Shown piece by piece: positions 33,583 through 48,283 of a stretch of 58,575 nucleotides of DNA; the stretch's first letter is position 1, and each line of letters starts with the position of its first letter. The translations under genes and the position numbers were made by a program. Location: positions 1 to 58,575 of the forward strand of contig JAUWTD010000001.1 in the NCBI GenBank assembly GCA_030609775.1. The letters run 5' to 3'. This DNA is from Candidatus Altiarchaeota archaeon. Lineage in GTDB: Archaea; Altiarchaeota; Altiarchaeia; IMC4; QMZM01. The notes beneath the pieces are model-generated. The model was not told the DNA's origin, ran no database searches, and was given only the letters and a program-made list of their open reading frames with translations.

Positions 33583-33690
33583 AAAAATCAACAACTCCAC
33601 CCTGAAGGGTGGAGTATGAACTTACAAAGTCGGCAATTAGGCATTCATCTGCGGCTTAAAAGCCGCAGTATTCTGCCGACTTTGTAATAA
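33583..33690. repeat. 108-nt double-hairpin element, copy 1
   Basis: 100% identical to 40641-40748. Hairpin 1 is ctccaccc-tgaa-gggtggag (33595-33614). Hairpin 2 has a 12-bp outer stem acaaagtcggca/tgccgactttgt, an internal loop and an 8-bp inner stem ctgcggct-taaa-agccgcag (33624-33685). Confidence 0.9.
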
Positions 33691-37318: not shown

Positions 37319-38026
37319 ATGAAACCTCAGCTTTCAAGGATATTGATTTTCCTTGGAATCGCCTCTATTCTATCATTCACCCTATTTTCTATCATACTCT
37401 ACGTCTTCTTTAACCCGACTGCAACAACTACAACAACTACAACATCAAATACTACAACAACCACAACAACAACCAGCACCACGACACCGACTACGACAAC
37501 AACCAGCACCACGACACCGACTACGACAACAACCAGCACCACGACATCGACCACCCGACCTATTGAATGCGGATCGAATATAGACTGCGGGGAAAAACAC
37601 TATTCTGGAACATATTTCTGCAACAAGGAGGTTATCTCACTTATGGAATGCACCCCAAAATGTGTTCACGGCATTTGCAAGGAAAAATGCGTACCCAAAC
37701 CAATAGACCAATGCGGCAGAAACGAGACATGTATACCAGGTAGAAGAGCCTGCATAAAAGATGATGAATTCGAGAATGTGTCATCCTTTATTGAGATAAG
37801 GTATGGTGAATATGCCATATCATATAAACACCAGTTCAGGTTAAACTACACAGTCTACATATCAGAATATGAGATTAGTGCAGTGCTCGTAGATGTGATA
37901 AAACCTGGTGGAAAAGAAGAGCAGACACTCATCAAATGGGAGAGGGATACAATAATAGATGACATAAAAATAGGGCTCTATGCAATAAAGAGTACATCAG
38001 TTATCCTCTGGATACAAAAAACGTAA
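37319..38026 (+). CDS. Membrane-anchored or secreted protein with a poly-Thr stalk and a Cys-rich domain
   Basis: 235 aa. N-terminal TM, about 50 aa of T/S/P, then a CGSNIDCGEKHYSGTYFCN...C..KC..G.C...C module. Confidence 0.55.
   Translation: MKPQLSRILIFLGIASILSFTLFSIILYVFFNPTATTTTTTTSNTTTTTTTTSTTTPTTTTTSTTTPTTTTTSTTTSTTRPIECGSNIDCGEKHYSGTYFCNKEVISLMECTPKCVHGICKEKCVPKPIDQCGRNETCIPGRRACIKDDEFENVSSFIEIRYGEYAISYKHQFRLNYTVYISEYEISAVLVDVIKPGGKEEQTLIKWERDTIIDDIKIGLYAIKSTSVILWIQKT
37463..37555 (+). repeat. Three tandem copies of a 30-nt unit encoding TTTTTSTTTP
   Basis: aaccagcaccacgaca(c/t)cga occurs at 37471, 37501 and 37531, an exact 30-nt period. Confidence 0.85.
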
Positions 38027-38072
38027 ACTATTTTAAGCATGCAGGAAAAAGAATGATATAAACAAAAAAAAA

Positions 38073-38810
38073 ATGGAAAGAGTAAAAACAGGGATAAAAG
38101 GTTTAGACGAGCTTATAGGAGGGGGCGTGCCTGAAGGTTCAAGTGTTTTGGTTGCAGGATCCTGCGGCACAGGGAAGACAATAGTTTCTTTGCAATTCTT
38201 ATACAAAGGTGCCCTTGCAGGTGAACCTGGAGTGTATGTTACCTTTGAGGAGTCAAAGAAGAAGACGATAACACAGTGCCAACAATTTGGATGGGACATA
38301 GAGGAATTAGAGAATAGAAACCTATTTGACATCTATGTTGTTGATACAGATGACTTAGATGAGGTCCTGGCCAACATAAGAAGCAAGGTAGATAAGATAA
38401 ACGCAAAGAGACTCGTCATCGACTCATTAACGATGATGATGGAACATGGCACGATATATAGGTCAAGGATATCAAAGGAAGTAGGTAAACGAGAAAAAGA
38501 AAAGGTTAAATCAAGATTCCCTATGAAAGGATTCGAAGTCACTAGAAGAGACATATACGCAGTAGTAGGTGAGATAAACAGCCTTGAAACCACATCCTTC
38601 CTAGTGTCTGAAGCAGGTGACGGAGGAGAATATATTTCAAGAGACACAATAAGCGAATTCGCATGCGATGGAGTAATCCAGTTAACCATCAATGAATTAG
38701 GCGGCGAAATAGAGAAACTTCTCTCAGTCAGAAAACTAAGAGGAACTGAAATAACCATGACTCTTTCACCTATAAATTTCACAAAAACCGGAATAGAGAT
38801 CGAGGAATAG
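38073..38810 (+). CDS. Single-domain KaiC/RecA-superfamily ATPase
   Basis: 245 aa with GIKGLDELIGGGVPEGSSVLVAGSCGTGKT (Walker A), YVTFEES and Walker B RLVIDSL. This is the typical archaeal KaiC-like (COG0467-type) layout. Confidence 0.8.
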   Translation: MERVKTGIKGLDELIGGGVPEGSSVLVAGSCGTGKTIVSLQFLYKGALAGEPGVYVTFEESKKKTITQCQQFGWDIEELENRNLFDIYVVDTDDLDEVLANIRSKVDKINAKRLVIDSLTMMMEHGTIYRSRISKEVGKREKEKVKSRFPMKGFEVTRRDIYAVVGEINSLETTSFLVSEAGDGGEYISRDTISEFACDGVIQLTINELGGEIEKLLSVRKLRGTEITMTLSPINFTKTGIEIEE

Positions 38811-38811
38811 G

Positions 38812-39210
38812 ATGGCAGAGGATAGATTCGATCAAATTCACAGAATCCTGAAGAGGCTTTATGACGAACACGACGACATAGACGCGTGCATGGTCGTCAG
38901 AAAAGGCATGGAAGGGGTTATTATGTTCCCTGATGATTTCATAGACAAGATCTCAACAATCTGGGATCCCTTAAATGATATAATAAACAAACTAATGGAG
39001 ATCATCTCAGATAATGTGATGTACGGAATAGAGAAAACATATATGGAGGTATTTGACTACGGCATAATATTCCATACAATATCTATGTCAGATACGTCAC
39101 TTGTTACATTCATCAGCAAAAACACAGACAATGAAACCATAGACACCCTCTCAGGAAAACTCAAAGATATTATCGAGGCCAAAAACAGAATCCAAGAGAT
39201 AATTGAATAA
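38812..39210 (+). CDS. Small cytoplasmic protein, Roadblock/LC7 (MglB)-like (tentative)
   Basis: 132 aa, starting 2 nt after the KaiC-like stop. The alternating pattern IDACMVVRKGMEGVI ... YGIIFHTISMSDTSLVTFI fits the Roadblock alpha-beta-alpha layout. Judged by eye only. Confidence 0.4.
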   Translation: MAEDRFDQIHRILKRLYDEHDDIDACMVVRKGMEGVIMFPDDFIDKISTIWDPLNDIINKLMEIISDNVMYGIEKTYMEVFDYGIIFHTISMSDTSLVTFISKNTDNETIDTLSGKLKDIIEAKNRIQEIIE

Positions 39211-40663
39211 AAAAAAAATGATAAATATGAAAAGACTCGTTCTTGTTCTTATATTTTTGTCTCTGATAATACCCGTATCGTCTTTTGACTACGTTGATGA
39301 AAAGAGGAATTTGCCTGCAGTAGAAAGTGAACTTATGAAGTATTTCTGCAAGGATGTAAGAAATAATAAAGAATGCAATATACCCTCTCAATGGGCTGAA
39401 GACTTCTGGGGGGTTTGCTGCGGAGGATTATGCAACAGCTTTACAAAGGATTGCAGGCATTCAGTCAACAGCGAAGTATCCCTCCTTGATGTCATGGTAA
39501 AACTACCCTGCAAAGATGCAGGCACAGGAGATAGATGTGACATACCAGACGAACTCAGCGAAAAATATAATTTATGGGGCATCTGCTGCTATAATAAATG
39601 CAATTACTGGGAGGAAGAATGCAGCGGAGGCTATGAACCAGATTATAGGAAAGACGAAATAGGCTATGATGAGAAAATACCCTCAGAAGAGGAAATCGAG
39701 AAGGGATTAAAGGTATTAGCCATATTCTCATGCGTAGGGGTAAAAGATGATGAACCATGCCAAATAGATGACAGGCACCTAACAGAAGAATTTAACCTGT
39801 TTGGAGTATGCTGCCTAGGCAAATGCCATTTCAGAAGCACAGAATGCACCCCCGAGACAAATGAAACAACACCGGATTTAGTCATAATCGGAATGGAAAT
39901 ATATCCCGGGGATTTAAGCAATACACTGCAGATAAAAGAAGTCAAAATAACAATCCAGAATCAAGGTAAAACAGCAACAACAAACAGATTCTGGATTGAA
40001 TTACTGAAAGACTATGAATCTGCACCCACCACAAAAGAGATAAAAAACACTCTTGACGCAGGTGAAGATATCATCATATCATTCTACGACCTGCAAGCAT
40101 ACAAAGAACCCGGAGAATACATACTAACAGCCACCATAGACTCAAATCCATCATCCTTAAAAGACAACCTAATCAAGGAAACAGATGAAACCAACAACAA
40201 AGCCACATTGAGGATATTTATCGGCGGAACAATCAAAACAGGAACCCAACCCAAAGAAAACACAGACACCCCACCATTGTGCGGCGATGGACACTGCGAA
40301 GAAGACGAAAAAAAAACGTGCCCTACCGACTGTGACACCCAAGAAGATGAATCCAAGGAATCACCCCTACCTGCATTAATAATCCTTGCCCTATTCTTTG
40401 CTGTTTTCACATACTTCCGAAGATTAAGGAAATCTTCTCACGACCGAAAACAACAAAAACAACAGATGAAAGAATTAATAGACGAGAAAAAAACCATAGA
40501 GGAAATGATAACACTTGCAAAGAAAAAATACCACAAAAGAAAAATAGACGAAGAAAGCTTCAAAGAAATCATTAAAGAAAACCAAAAAAGACTAATAGAA
40601 GTAGAGACAAAAATTGAGAACAAAAGAAATAATTCAATGAAAAAATCAACAACTCCACCCTGA
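39203..40663 (+). CDS. Single-pass membrane protein: 3 Cys-rich modules, a CARDB-like domain, TM helix and cytoplasmic coiled-coil tail
   Basis: 486 aa, overlapping the upstream gene by 8 nt. There are three copies of C-x6-7-C-x-I-(P/D)...(W/F)G(V/I)CC..(K)C......C. PDLVIIGMEIYPG...ITIQNQG...ETDETNNKATL is CARDB-like. TM helix LPALIILALFFAVFTYF is followed by a K/E-rich tail. The last ~7 codons and the stop lie inside the 108-nt element. Confidence 0.65.
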   Translation: MNKKKMINMKRLVLVLIFLSLIIPVSSFDYVDEKRNLPAVESELMKYFCKDVRNNKECNIPSQWAEDFWGVCCGGLCNSFTKDCRHSVNSEVSLLDVMVKLPCKDAGTGDRCDIPDELSEKYNLWGICCYNKCNYWEEECSGGYEPDYRKDEIGYDEKIPSEEEIEKGLKVLAIFSCVGVKDDEPCQIDDRHLTEEFNLFGVCCLGKCHFRSTECTPETNETTPDLVIIGMEIYPGDLSNTLQIKEVKITIQNQGKTATTNRFWIELLKDYESAPTTKEIKNTLDAGEDIIISFYDLQAYKEPGEYILTATIDSNPSSLKDNLIKETDETNNKATLRIFIGGTIKTGTQPKENTDTPPLCGDGHCEEDEKKTCPTDCDTQEDESKESPLPALIILALFFAVFTYFRRLRKSSHDRKQQKQQMKELIDEKKTIEEMITLAKKKYHKRKIDEESFKEIIKENQKRLIEVETKIENKRNNSMKKSTTPP

Positions 40664-40748
40664 AGGGTGGAGTATGAACTTACAAAGTCGGCAATTAGGC
40701 ATTCATCTGCGGCTTAAAAGCCGCAGTATTCTGCCGACTTTGTAATAA
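40641..40748. repeat. 108-nt double-hairpin element, copy 2
   Basis: Identical to 33583-33690. It lies exactly between the convergent genes 39203..40663 and 40751..41839, and the stop codon TGA of the former (40661-40663) is in the hairpin-1 loop. Confidence 0.9.
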
Positions 40749-45102: not shown

Positions 45103-45552
45103 ATGAAAAACAATATGCTTACTATAGGGCTGATCTGCCTAATATTGTTAAACACCGGATGCATAGACAGAGAACAGTTAATAGACTATATGAGGGGCAG
45201 AGAACCTCTTCCTGAGTCAACAACGAAAACAACAACCACAATAGCCACAACAACATCATCTACAATAATCGAAGAAACAACCACAACATCAACCGCATCA
45301 ACAACTACATCAACCACAACAACACTCTTCAAGGATGCGATATGTGAAGGAAAATGGGGCCAAGTCGACAAAGACCGATGTTACCTGAATCTTGCAAACG
45401 AAAAGATGGATTCAACCATATGCGAACGAATAAAACAAAAAAGCCAGATAGATGACTGCTACTATGGAGTAGCCCTTATAACAGAAAACCGTACACTCTG
45501 CAACAAGATATTAGAAGACCGCCAAAGAGAACGCTGCTTTGAGTTCCTGTAA
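45103..45552 (+). CDS. Lipobox/poly-Thr protein with three C-x2-I...C-Y repeats
   Basis: 149 aa. Signal ending in LLNTGCID, a T-rich linker, then DRCYLNLA...ICERI......DDCYYGVA....LCNKI.....ERCF. Confidence 0.55.
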   Translation: MKNNMLTIGLICLILLNTGCIDREQLIDYMRGREPLPESTTKTTTTIATTTSSTIIEETTTTSTASTTTSTTTTLFKDAICEGKWGQVDKDRCYLNLANEKMDSTICERIKQKSQIDDCYYGVALITENRTLCNKILEDRQRERCFEFL

Positions 45553-47006: not shown

Positions 47007-47137
47007 ACCAATTATCGTATTATCTAGAATAAAGACCTATCACCTATATAAATACAAATATATGTCTTCGGGCATATCAAGAATTATTTATAAGGTTGAA
47101 GGCCATAAGTAAATGAAATAGATTATAGTAAATTATA

Positions 47138-47722
47138 ATGAAAAAACTAATTGTTGTTGCCCTGCTTTTATTGGTTTGCGGATGCATAGGAGAAGAAAAA
47201 ATCGTATGCAATAAACCCTACATACAGGTCGGAAGGGATTGTTGCCTGGATACAAACGATAATAGGATATGTGATATACACGAGGCAACCACCCCAACCC
47301 CAACCACAACAACCACAACCACCACAACAACCACAACAACCACAACAACCACAACAACCACAACAACTACTTTAGGGATTCCTGAATCCTGCCTGGATGC
47401 ATTCAAGATAGTAAAGGAACACCCATACATTGATTCACTAGTTGAAGACAATAGATGTGATCCCTTCACATGGGATAGGGTTGGTCCGATGATCCGATTA
47501 AAGGATTGGACAATTGTTGAGTGCTCAGAGGGAGGAGTAGATAAGGATTTTTGTATGGACTCTCAAATAGGTGAAAAAGCAGGTGAAAGCGAAAAAGACG
47601 ATATAAGGAGGCTGTTTGGAAGAGAACTAGGAGACTTCTATGTCTTCACATACCAATGTGATATCATATCGCGTTTTACATTATTTTTGGATTCAGATAC
47701 TTTAGAGATGGCCAACCTTTAG
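47138..47722 (+). CDS. Lipobox/poly-Thr secreted protein, tandem paralogue 1
   Basis: 194 aa, beginning MKKLIVVALLLLVCGCIGEEKIVCNKPYIQVG, with a run of about 26 Thr/Pro residues. The C-domain is shared with 47762..48283. Confidence 0.6.
   Translation: MKKLIVVALLLLVCGCIGEEKIVCNKPYIQVGRDCCLDTNDNRICDIHEATTPTPTTTTTTTTTTTTTTTTTTTTTTTLGIPESCLDAFKIVKEHPYIDSLVEDNRCDPFTWDRVGPMIRLKDWTIVECSEGGVDKDFCMDSQIGEKAGESEKDDIRRLFGRELGDFYVFTYQCDIISRFTLFLDSDTLEMANL
47288..47371 (+). repeat. ACN-codon microsatellite (aca/acc units) encoding the poly-Thr tract
   Basis: acaaccaca-type units are reiterated over about 84 nt. The paralogue 47762..48283 has only 4 Thr at the same point. Confidence 0.85.
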
Positions 47723-47761
47723 ATGAGGGGGGGAAAATAATTCACCAAAAAAAAAAATAAG

Positions 47762-48283
47762 ATGAAAAAATTAGTTGTTGTTGCTCTGCTTTTATTAGTC
47801 TGCGGATGCATAGGAGAAGAAAAAATCGTATGCAATAAACCCTACATACACGTTGGCAGCAATTGTTGCCTGGATATAAACGATAATATGATATGTGATA
47901 TAGATGAGGCAACCACTACAACCATACATGATATGCCCAAATCCTTCCAGGAGGTATTTAGAATAGTAAAGGAACACCCAGATATTGAGTTAATAGTTGA
48001 AGACTATGGCTGCGACCCCTTCACATGGGATAGGGTTGGCCCGATGATACGGATAAAGGATTGGAAGGCGGTTGAGTGCTCAGACGGAGGCTCAGACGAA
48101 GATTTTTGCAGCGACTTTACAAAAGGAGACGACGCAGGTGAAAACGAAAAAGATGACATAGAAAAACTGTTTGGAAGAGAACTTGAAGACTTCTATGCCT
48201 TCAGATACCTATGCAAGGAGAGAGTGGAACTGGTAGTATTCCTAGACCCCTCTACAGGAGAAATAGCCACATTGAGACAATAA
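47762..48283 (+). CDS. Lipobox secreted protein, tandem paralogue 2 (short Thr tract)
   Basis: 173 aa. The N-terminal 30 aa are nearly identical to paralogue 1, and the C-domain is collinear (IVKEHP.I...VED..CDPFTWDRVGPMIR.KDW..VECS.GG.D.DFC). Confidence 0.6.
   Translation: MKKLVVVALLLLVCGCIGEEKIVCNKPYIHVGSNCCLDINDNMICDIDEATTTTIHDMPKSFQEVFRIVKEHPDIELIVEDYGCDPFTWDRVGPMIRIKDWKAVECSDGGSDEDFCSDFTKGDDAGENEKDDIEKLFGRELEDFYAFRYLCKERVELVVFLDPSTGEIATLRQ

What the first reader, a model, noticed from the sequence alone, without database searches (positions are those of the whole stretch)
38073..40663. Translationally coupled KaiC-like ATPase, Roadblock-like protein and Cys-rich/CARDB transmembrane protein: candidate envelope-linked signalling module
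Three genes are packed with a 2-nt gap and an 8-nt overlap. The first is a single-domain KaiC/RecA ATPase with Walker A GSCGTGKT and Walker B RLVIDSL. The second is a 132-aa protein whose alternating pattern resembles Roadblock/LC7 (MglB-like) regulators. The third is a 486-aa single-pass protein. Its exterior has three novel-looking Cys modules plus a CARDB-like domain, and its cytoplasmic side is a K/E-rich coiled coil. KaiC-like ATPases have been proposed as archaeal signalling hubs, and Roadblock proteins normally partner small GTPases. I do not recognise an ATPase/Roadblock/receptor-like trio as a characterised system. The cluster is preceded by another Thr/Cys-rich surface protein (37319..38026) and lies within the 7-kb interval bounded by the two copies of the 108-nt element.
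Basis: partly seen in the sequence, partly recalled or inferred. Interest (0 to 1): 0.65.

Follow-up and report, generated by a model that had tools for sequence, protein, structure and literature searches.

The report
KaiC ATPase–Roadblock pair with receptor-like neighbour
An uncultured cold-seep archaeon carries a tightly coupled gene pair, a KaiC-type ATPase plus a small Roadblock-fold protein, that is conserved across several archaeal phyla and sits beside changing sensor or receptor-like proteins, so it looks like a signalling core we found no description of.

Summary
The three ORFs exist, and most of the description holds.

**Gene 1 (38073-38810)** is a single-domain KaiC-family ATPase with intact catalytic motifs.

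**Gene 2 (38812-39210)** matches no Pfam or NCBIfam family. With a 35-sequence alignment AlphaFold2 gives pLDDT 91.7, and all 50 listed PDB fold matches are Roadblock/LC7 proteins.

**The conserved unit is the pair, not the trio.**
- All 12 species genomes found with a relative (Altiarchaeota, Aenigmatarchaeota, Iainarchaeota, Micrarchaeota) have a KaiC gene upstream on the same strand.
- The junction is usually stop, 1-2 nt, then ATG.
- No small GTPase lies nearby.

**Gene 3** most likely starts at ATG 39227, giving a 16-nt gap rather than an 8-nt overlap. It occurs only in the closest clade, and relatives carry a conserved TATA box in front of it.

**A link to the pair is still likely.** Its cytoplasmic tail motif (KYHKRKIDEESF...) is its best-conserved part. 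The motif recurs on three other membrane-protein architectures adjacent to KaiC-Roadblock pairs, including 7TM-DUF835 (inactivated KaiC) proteins. It also occurs far from any pair. Other lineages place FIST sensors there.

**Best reading:** a modular receptor/sensor + KaiC + Roadblock signalling system. The pair is well supported, the receptor link moderately supported, and the mechanism inferred.

The parts
38029..38036 (+). TATA-like box (TATTTTAA) about 40 nt upstream of the KaiC start; candidate promoter of the pair
   Evidence: Read from the sequence. An A/T-rich TATTTA-type motif stands at the same place in close relatives (alignment A7). This is inference only; no transcription start data exist.
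38073..38810 (+). Single-domain KaiC-family (RecA-superfamily) ATPase, 245 aa, with catalytic motifs intact
   Evidence: Pfam PF06745 at E 8.1e-57. Solved KaiC structures match at E 1e-46, and PH0284/PH0186 at 1e-33 and 1e-29. In the 14-sequence alignment the Walker A glycines and lysine, the Walker B R-x3-D and K221/R223 are invariant, and the first catalytic Glu (E59) is conserved in at least 90% of sequences.
38812..39210 (+). 132-aa Roadblock/LC7-fold protein from a divergent family with no Pfam match; starts 1 nt after the KaiC stop, with a GAGGA Shine-Dalgarno-like motif inside the KaiC 3' end
   Evidence: No Pfam or NCBIfam family. AF2 with 35 sequences gives pLDDT 91.7 and pTM 0.86. 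All 50 listed Foldseek PDB matches are Roadblock superfamily. A KaiC gene lies upstream in 12/12 genome loci. The junction is conserved.
39227..40663 (+). 478-aa type-I membrane, receptor-like protein (the mechanical ORF starts at TTG 39203)
   Evidence: The start is set by the database gene call and homologue alignment. Hydropathy shows a signal-like segment at aa 5-23 and a transmembrane segment at aa 379-397.
39347..39847 (+). Three 6-Cys modules (aa 41-76, 95-132, 169-207) in the predicted exterior part
   Evidence: Regex and alignment. All 18 Cys are invariant in the five homologues. No Pfam or PDB sequence match.
39869..40207 (+). CARDB (Ig-like beta-sandwich) domain
   Evidence: Pfam PF07705 at E 2.6e-9, 37.6 bits against a cut-off of 22.7.
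40361..40417 (+). Transmembrane segment (SPLPALIILALFFAVFTYF), followed by RRLRK, which fits the positive-inside rule
   Evidence: Hydropathy score 2.05.
40514..40615 (+). Conserved cytoplasmic tail motif LAKKKYHKRKIDEESFKEIIKENQKRLIEVETKI
   Evidence: The tail is 69% identical among homologues, against about 54% for the ectodomains and about 25% for the stalk and transmembrane segment. The motif is shared with membrane proteins adjacent to the pair in L008, L009 and L038. It also occurs elsewhere.
40641..40748 (+). 108-nt structured repeat (second copy at 33583-33690); it supplies the last 7 codons and stop of gene 3 and lies between convergent genes
   Evidence: Absent from relatives. Not part of the module.
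37319..38026 (+). Thr/Cys-rich membrane-anchored surface protein upstream; conserved at this position only in the closest clade
   Evidence: Paralogues occur elsewhere in the same loci, so the adjacency carries little information.

Best explanation
The core is a two-gene cytoplasmic switch. An active single-domain KaiC-type ATPase is translated together with a Roadblock/LC7-fold protein.

I infer that the Roadblock protein, probably a dimer like other Roadblock proteins, binds the KaiC ring depending on its nucleotide or phosphorylation state. It would then either modulate ATPase turnover or act as the read-out adaptor. This would parallel MglB acting on MglA, or KaiB acting on KaiC.

Input comes from interchangeable sensor proteins encoded beside the pair. 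In this organism the sensor is a single-pass surface protein with three Cys modules and a CARDB domain outside the cell. Its conserved cytoplasmic helical tail (KYHKRKIDEESF...QKRLIE) is the likely docking or oligomerisation element that connects it to the KaiC/Roadblock core.

Shown here:
- the family and fold assignments;
- conservation of the pair and of its junction;
- recurrence of the tail motif and of FIST or 7TM-iKaiC sensors beside the pair.

Inferred:
- physical interaction;
- direction of signalling;
- output.
For: 1. Roadblock fold. The AF2 model has pLDDT 91.7. All 50 listed Foldseek PDB hits are Roadblock, MglB, MglC, LAMTOR or Rag C-terminal domains, with E down to 6.6e-6 and TM 0.6-0.77. 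The profile-versus-PDB sequence search gave weak hits enriched for Roadblock proteins: SLM4, 9jue and MglB. JGI names a distant member Roadblock/LC7/MglB.

2. Pair conservation. In 12/12 species genomes from four phyla, and in 5 further contigs, a KaiC gene lies upstream on the same strand, while flanking genes differ. It is directly adjacent in all but L015 and L016, where one membrane-protein gene lies between the two. L038 adds another lineage.

3. Junction. A stop-1/2 nt-ATG junction occurs in 11 of 16 loci, with SD-like GAGGA/GGTGA motifs.

4. No small GTPase. No small-GTPase-like P-loop ORF was found in the 58-kb window or in loci L001-L018.

5. Active ATPase. The KaiC catalytic motifs are conserved.

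6. Sensor neighbours vary:
- a single-pass tail protein follows the pair co-directionally in this clade;
- it is divergent in L008 and convergent in L009;
- two 7TM-DUF835-tail proteins follow the pair in L038, and DUF835 is an inactivated KaiC domain according to PMC5847659;
- a 7TM protein is inserted between the two genes in L015 and L016;
- FIST sensors occur in L013, L017, L018 and L039.

7. The tail is the most conserved region of gene 3.
Against: - No interaction or expression data exist. The metatranscriptomes gave only one 172-nt contig.
- Gene 3 follows the pair only in the closest clade.
- Relatives carry a conserved TATA box in the spacer before gene 3, so it may be transcribed separately.
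- Of 16 metagenome loci with the tail motif, 13 have no KaiC gene on the DNA held. L029 and L034 have one next to the tail protein and L019 a weak match 0.7 kb upstream. None has a Roadblock-family gene. The tail could therefore be a general oligomerisation module.
- Three of four very distant family members (P0045, P0031, P0047) have no KaiC directly upstream.
- Canonical Roadblock proteins regulate GTPases, not RecA-fold ATPases.
Confidence: 0.6

Rival explanations
1. Only the KaiC-Roadblock pair is a functional unit. The CARDB/Cys-module protein is an ordinary surface protein that sits next to the pair through inherited synteny. Its tail is a generic membrane-proximal coiled-coil or oligomerisation element unrelated to KaiC.
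For: - The trio occurs only in one clade whose wider gene order is also conserved, from SecDF through to deoxyhypusine synthase.
- Relatives have a conserved TATA box before gene 3.
- 13 of 16 tail-bearing proteins from metagenomes have no KaiC on the DNA held, and none has a Roadblock-family gene.
- L019 carries a Cys-module+tail protein with no Roadblock-family gene nearby.
Against: - Tail-bearing proteins of four different architectures and three different orientations lie adjacent to the pair: this clade, L008, L009 and L038.
- The tail also ends proteins that carry an inactivated KaiC domain.
- The tail is more conserved than the ectodomain.
- L029 and L034 place a KaiC next to a tail protein.
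Confidence: 0.3
2. The Roadblock protein is a conventional MglB-like regulator of a small GTPase encoded elsewhere. Its adjacency to KaiC reflects co-regulation, not direct action on KaiC.
For: Every characterised Roadblock partner among the fold matches is a GTPase or a scaffold: MglA-MglB, Rag-Ragulator (PMC9481161, PMC10933270).
Against: - No small-GTPase-like ORF was found in the window or in loci L001-L018.
- The 1-nt stop-start junction with KaiC is conserved across phyla.
- The family does not match the Pfam Roadblock model, so it is a divergent branch.
Confidence: 0.07
3. The pair is an accessory of a type IV pilus, archaellum or other surface-filament system, with the KaiC acting like ArlH.
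For: KaiC-family ATPases and Roadblock proteins (arCOG02603) were each reported, separately, as frequent in archaeal type IV pilus loci (PMC4858521). Surface proteins are common neighbours here.
Against: - The ArlH models score far below their cut-offs (59.7 against 215 bits; 4yds at E 9e-7 against KaiC at 1e-46).
- No pilus or archaellum Pfam family appears among the neighbours listed for L001-L006 and L038.
Confidence: 0.03

Closest known systems
MglA-MglB (Myxococcus, Thermus) and archaeal/Asgard Roadblock proteins
   Same: The 132-aa protein has the same alpha-beta-beta-alpha-beta-beta-beta(-alpha) Roadblock fold. It is a small partner protein encoded next to a P-loop NTPase.
   Different: The neighbouring NTPase is a RecA-fold KaiC-type ATPase, not a Ras-like GTPase. 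There is no hit to the Pfam Roadblock model, and sequence identity to solved Roadblock proteins is 6-24%.
Cyanobacterial KaiC-KaiB(-KaiA) oscillator
   Same: A KaiC-family ATPase (E 1e-46 to solved KaiC) is paired with a small protein that could bind depending on KaiC state.
   Different: The ATPase has a single domain of 245 aa rather than a double domain of about 519 aa. The circadian KaiC models score far below their cut-offs. There are no KaiA or KaiB genes, and the partner has a Roadblock fold, not a thioredoxin-like fold.
Archaeal KaiC-centred signalling networks (Makarova, Galperin and Koonin 2017, as cited in PMC5847659), including iKaiC/DUF835 and MEDS fusions
   Same: A stand-alone KaiC-like ATPase lies next to variable sensor proteins. 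In L038 the pair is followed by 7TM-DUF835 (iKaiC) proteins.
   Different: I found no description of a dedicated, translationally coupled Roadblock-fold partner, or of the KYHxRxIDEESF tail motif, in the searchable literature. The 2017 paper itself could not be read.
Ragulator/LAMTOR-Rag (eukaryotes)
   Same: Roadblock-fold proteins connect an NTPase to a membrane-anchored component (fold matches).
   Different: The similarity is in fold and logic only. The NTPase class differs, and no orthology is implied.
ArlH/FlaH of the archaellum
   Same: A single-domain KaiC-like ATPase.
   Different: Scores lie far below the ArlH cut-offs, and there is no archaellum context.

Membership tests
KaiC family ATPase (Pfam PF06745, RecA superfamily) | Sequence match above the curated threshold | tested here: met
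   192.7 bits against a cut-off of 26.6. E 1e-46 to solved KaiC structures.
KaiC family ATPase (Pfam PF06745, RecA superfamily) | Walker A, catalytic Glu, Walker B and Arg/Lys sensor residues | tested here: met
   GSCGTGKT, FEES, RLVIDS and RKLRG are present. The Walker A Gly/Lys, the Walker B R-x3-D and K221/R223 are invariant in 14 pair-associated KaiCs, and the catalytic E59 is nearly invariant. L014 alone has a degenerate Walker A.
KaiC family ATPase (Pfam PF06745, RecA superfamily) | Hexameric ring, ATPase activity and autophosphorylation | not testable with these tools
   Requires biochemistry.
Circadian KaiC (KaiABC clock) | Double KaiC domain, equivalog-level score, and KaiB/KaiA partners | tested here: not met
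   Single domain of 245 aa. TIGR02655 scores 105 against 546 bits, and NF006799 scores 131 against 408 bits. No KaiA or KaiB in the neighbourhoods.
ArlH/FlaH | Equivalog score and archaellum operon context | tested here: not met
   NF052589 scores 59.7 against 215 bits. No arl genes among the neighbours.
Roadblock/LC7 superfamily (MglB-like) | Alpha-beta-beta-alpha-beta-beta-beta fold | tested here: met
   The AF2 model (pLDDT 91.7) has elements H-E-E-H-H-E-E-E-H-H. All 50 listed Foldseek hits are Roadblock superfamily, with probability 1.00.
Roadblock/LC7 superfamily (MglB-like) | Match to the Pfam Roadblock model PF03259 | tested here: not met
   The model does not appear among hits at E<=1 for any of 35 family members. 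One member hits the Roadblock-fold family MAPKK1_Int at E 0.058. The profile against PDB gives only E 0.26-0.64 to Roadblock proteins.
Roadblock/LC7 superfamily (MglB-like) | Cognate small Ras-like GTPase partner, usually adjacent | tested here: not met
   No GxxxxGK[ST]-bearing ORF with an NKxD motif was found in the window or in loci L001-L018. The only P-loop protein that recurs at these loci is KaiC.
Roadblock/LC7 superfamily (MglB-like) | Homodimerisation, and GAP or scaffold activity | not testable with these tools
   No multimer prediction or assay was available.
CARDB domain proteins (PF07705) | Sequence match above the curated threshold | tested here: met
   37.6 bits against 22.7, over aa 223-335 of the 486-aa ORF.
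SHOCT domain (resemblance of the tail, recalled from memory) | Match to a Pfam SHOCT model | tested here: not met
   No SHOCT hit for four tails at E<=10. The tail remains an unclassified motif.
Anti-phage defence systems (PADLOC) | Match to a defence-system protein model | tested here: not met
   Only a 15.7-bit P-loop hit for KaiC, and nothing for the other proteins.

The most novel reading that the evidence does not exclude
The Roadblock-fold protein is a dedicated regulator or state-reader of a RecA-fold KaiC ATPase. It would be the first Roadblock protein found to work on a non-GTPase NTPase. The KYHxRxIDEESF tail would be the docking module through which many different membrane receptors (single-pass CARDB or CarboxypepD_reg proteins, 7TM-iKaiC proteins) feed into this hub. 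Together they would form a transmembrane signalling system specific to DPANN and Altiarchaeota archaea.
Probability: 0.35. Interest if true: 0.75.

Novelty: new variant of a known kind. Interest (0 to 1): 0.55.

Why it matters
Archaeal KaiC-like ATPases are abundant and have been proposed as signalling hubs, but few have a known partner or read-out.

A partner protein that is conserved across phyla and translationally coupled to the ATPase gives a concrete, testable two-protein system. Both proteins are small and soluble, so they can be expressed heterologously even though the organisms are uncultured.

If the Roadblock protein acts on KaiC, the 'Roadblock regulates NTPases' idea would extend from Ras-like GTPases to RecA-fold ATPases. 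This would supply a functional analogue of KaiB for non-clock KaiCs.

The shared tail motif would then identify a set of candidate receptors in organisms that have few recognisable two-component systems. That includes symbiotic DPANN archaea, for which cell-surface sensing is central.

Tried and rejected
- **Family searches on the 132-aa protein.** Pfam and NCBIfam found nothing.
- **First structure model.** AF2 with only 3 sequences gave pLDDT 52 and was unusable, though its topology was already Roadblock-like.
- **First locus scan.** The genome scan with the 35-sequence alignment failed for lack of a conserved stretch. It was repeated with 11 closer sequences.
- **Sequence profile against PDB.** Only sub-threshold Roadblock hits.
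- **SHOCT-like nature of the tail.** Not supported by Pfam.
- **The tail as a marker exclusive to the pair.** Rejected, because 13 of 16 metagenome loci have no KaiC gene on the DNA held and none has a Roadblock-family gene.
- **The 7-kb interval between the 108-nt copies as a mobile cassette.** Rejected. Relatives keep the gene order without the element, and both copies simply sit between convergent genes.
- **Defence-system reading.** No PADLOC support.
- **Cys modules and ectodomain against PDB sequences.** No match.
- **Co-transcription.** Three cold-seep metatranscriptomes from the same study give only one 172-nt contig inside gene 3, plus 60-nt low-complexity matches. This is not informative.
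- **Makarova et al. 2017 (mBio).** Could not be read by DOI, PMC id or PubMed id. Whether it lists a KaiC-Roadblock neighbourhood remains unchecked.
Full report
**Observation**

The window is an archaeal chromosome segment with even composition, about 40% GC. The closest database relatives of its proteins are from 'Candidatus Altiarchaeota archaeon' assemblies. The DNA is found in cold-seep metagenomes.

The three ORFs are present as described. Two details need correction:
- The KaiC stop (TAG, 38808-38810) is followed by one nucleotide and then the ATG of gene 2.
- The 8-nt overlap between genes 2 and 3 depends on a mechanical TTG start at 39203. The database gene call is 478 aa, and all homologues align from MKR/MKK, which is ATG 39227. 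This leaves a 16-nt A-rich spacer.

**Gene 1 (38073-38810)**

This is a KaiC-family ATPase.
- Pfam PF06745 matches at E 8e-57. Solved KaiC structures match at E 1e-46, and the single-domain archaeal proteins PH0284, PH0186 and SSO2452 also match.
- Walker A, the catalytic Glu, Walker B and the RKxRG sensor region are conserved in 14 orthologues.
- It is not a clock KaiC and not ArlH. The equivalog models score far below their cut-offs.

**Gene 2 (38812-39210)**

It matches no Pfam or NCBIfam family.
- A word-indexed search found only two relatives at 61% identity.
- An exhaustive profile search of 1.84 billion cluster representatives found 38.
- With three sequences AF2 was unreliable, at pLDDT 52. 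With 35 sequences it gave pLDDT 91.7 and pTM 0.86.
- All 50 listed Foldseek hits in the PDB are Roadblock-superfamily proteins: Asgard Roadblock, MglB, MglC, LAMTOR, Rag C-terminal domains and MP1/p14. E-values go down to 6.6e-6 and TM-scores are 0.6-0.77.
- Weak sequence-profile hits point the same way. One distant member is named Roadblock/LC7/MglB by JGI.

The Roadblock fold is therefore established. Membership of the Pfam sequence family is not.

**What is conserved**

A scan of one genome per species found 12 loci that encode a relative of gene 2. They come from Altiarchaeota, Aenigmatarchaeota, Iainarchaeota, Micrarchaeota and unnamed archaea.
- In all 12 a KaiC-like gene lies upstream on the same strand. 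In two Iainarchaeota loci a 6-7-TM protein of about 210 aa is inserted between the two genes.
- Five further metagenome contigs of the close clade, plus L038, show the same pair.
- Flanking genes differ between lineages, so this is not plain synteny.
- The junction is stop, 1-2 nt, then ATG in 11 of 16 loci. It usually has GAGGA, GGAG or GGTGA just upstream. This is the signature of translational coupling.
- A P-loop/NKxD motif scan found no small GTPase in the window or in loci L001-L018.
- Among the most distant family members the link loosens. P0045 and P0031 lack KaiC, and P0047 has no KaiC upstream and is followed by a FIST protein.

**Gene 3 (39227-40663)**

From N- to C-terminus the protein contains:
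1. a signal-like segment;
2. three 6-Cys modules, with all 18 Cys invariant in the homologues;
3. a CARDB domain;
4. a short CGDGxC...CPxDC stalk;
5. one transmembrane segment;
6. an 81-aa basic and acidic tail.

It has only four database homologues, all directly downstream of a KaiC-Roadblock pair in the close clade. In those relatives the 33-36-nt spacer contains a conserved GTATATATA about 25 nt before the ATG. This is what an archaeal TATA box for a leaderless mRNA looks like, so gene 3 may have its own promoter. The window has lost this spacer.

**The tail motif**

The tail is the most conserved region of gene 3, at 69% identity against about 54% for the ectodomains and about 25% for the stalk and transmembrane segment. 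The same TM+tail also ends other proteins adjacent to the pair:
- CarboxypepD_reg-ectodomain proteins, divergent upstream in L008 and convergent downstream in L009;
- two 7TM-DUF835 proteins that immediately follow the pair in L038. DUF835 is an inactivated KaiC domain according to Galperin et al. 2018 (PMC5847659).

A metagenome scan with the tail found 16 further tail-bearing membrane proteins. Thirteen have no KaiC gene on the DNA held. L029 and L034 have a KaiC next to the tail protein, and L019 has a weak KaiC-like match 0.7 kb upstream. None has a Roadblock-family gene. The tail is therefore a wider module that is repeatedly, but not exclusively, placed beside the pair.

Other lineages place FIST sensor proteins there instead. 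In L013 and L039 the FIST gene overlaps the Roadblock gene by 4 nt, and in L017 and L018 it lies two genes away.

**Interpretation**

The pattern is a constant cytoplasmic pair with variable sensor or receptor neighbours, which is typical of a signal-transduction core. I propose that the Roadblock protein binds and regulates, or reads out, the KaiC ATPase, and that the receptor tail couples surface sensing to it.

The fold, the family assignments, the pair conservation and the neighbourhood statistics are shown here. Binding, direction of signalling and output are inferred.

The main rival, at about 0.3, is that gene 3 is an unrelated surface protein and its tail is a generic oligomerisation element. 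Less likely rivals are a conventional GTPase partner encoded elsewhere and a pilus or archaellum accessory role.

**Comparison and novelty**

The closest analogues are:
- MglA-MglB, which shares the fold of the small partner but has a different NTPase class;
- KaiC-KaiB, which shares the ATPase family but has a different partner fold;
- the KaiC-centred networks proposed for archaea.

Full-text searches found no paper that links KaiC with Roadblock or MglB or that describes the tail motif. I rate the finding a new variant of a known kind.

**Side issues**

- The 108-nt element has two perfect copies, is strongly structured (z = -9.5) and has no Rfam family. It is absent from relatives.
- The second copy supplies the last seven codons and the stop of gene 3.
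- Both copies lie between convergent genes, and the element does not define a cassette.
- No expression evidence could be obtained.

Noticed in passing
window 33583-33690 and 40641-40748: A 108-nt element in two perfect copies. It has two strong hairpins (RNA fold z = -9.5 on + and -8.2 on -), matches no Rfam family, and is absent from the syntenic loci of relatives. Both copies lie between convergent gene ends. The second copy replaces the C-terminal ...RMKKLEKK of gene 3 with KSTTPP-stop. Loose contig ends in a DNA run suggest further, diverged copies in the same metagenome.
   Followed up: partly
L001 8403-8437; L003 8403-8438; L004 7968-8000; L005 2376-2409; L006 1723-1758: A conserved GTATATATA about 25 nt upstream of the ATG of the CARDB/tail gene in all close relatives. 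It looks like an archaeal TATA box for a leaderless transcript. The window has a shortened 16-nt A-rich spacer instead.
   Followed up: partly
L038 2241-4968; L032 1860-3212; L033 3807-5159: HisKA_7TM + DUF835 (inactivated KaiC) proteins end in the same KRFHKREIDEESFREI tail motif as the window's gene 3. In L038 two such genes directly follow a KaiC-Roadblock pair.
   Followed up: yes
L015 4272-4892; L016 840-1496: In two Iainarchaeota genomes a 6-7-TM protein of about 210 aa, with no Pfam family, is inserted between the KaiC and Roadblock genes.
   Followed up: partly
L013 5274-6563; L039 914-1651; L017 6899-8173; L018 5605-6879: FIST-domain sensor proteins lie next to the Roadblock gene. In L013 and L039 the genes overlap by 4 nt.
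   Followed up: yes
L014 882-1631: The pair-associated KaiC of this genome has a degenerate Walker A (GPPGSLKT) and FQQ instead of FEE, so it may be an inactivated ATPase.
   Followed up: no
window 45222-45324 and 47130-48000: Further Thr-rich coding repeats, plus tandem 170-nt (89%) and 91-nt (74%) direct repeats. These suggest a cluster of paralogous Thr-rich surface-protein genes downstream.
   Followed up: no
window 40221-40392: A 172-nt contig with 2 mismatches, from a metatranscriptome of the same cold-seep study. It is the only trace of transcription found for gene 3, and DNA carry-over cannot be excluded.
   Followed up: partly
L029 1316-3277; L030 350-1386; L031 959-1836: A small syntenic group: an HTH-like protein (seen in L030 and L031), a 169-175-aa TM protein (L029 and L030), then a 169-189-aa tail-motif protein. 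Only L029 has a KaiC gene inserted directly after the tail protein.
   Followed up: no
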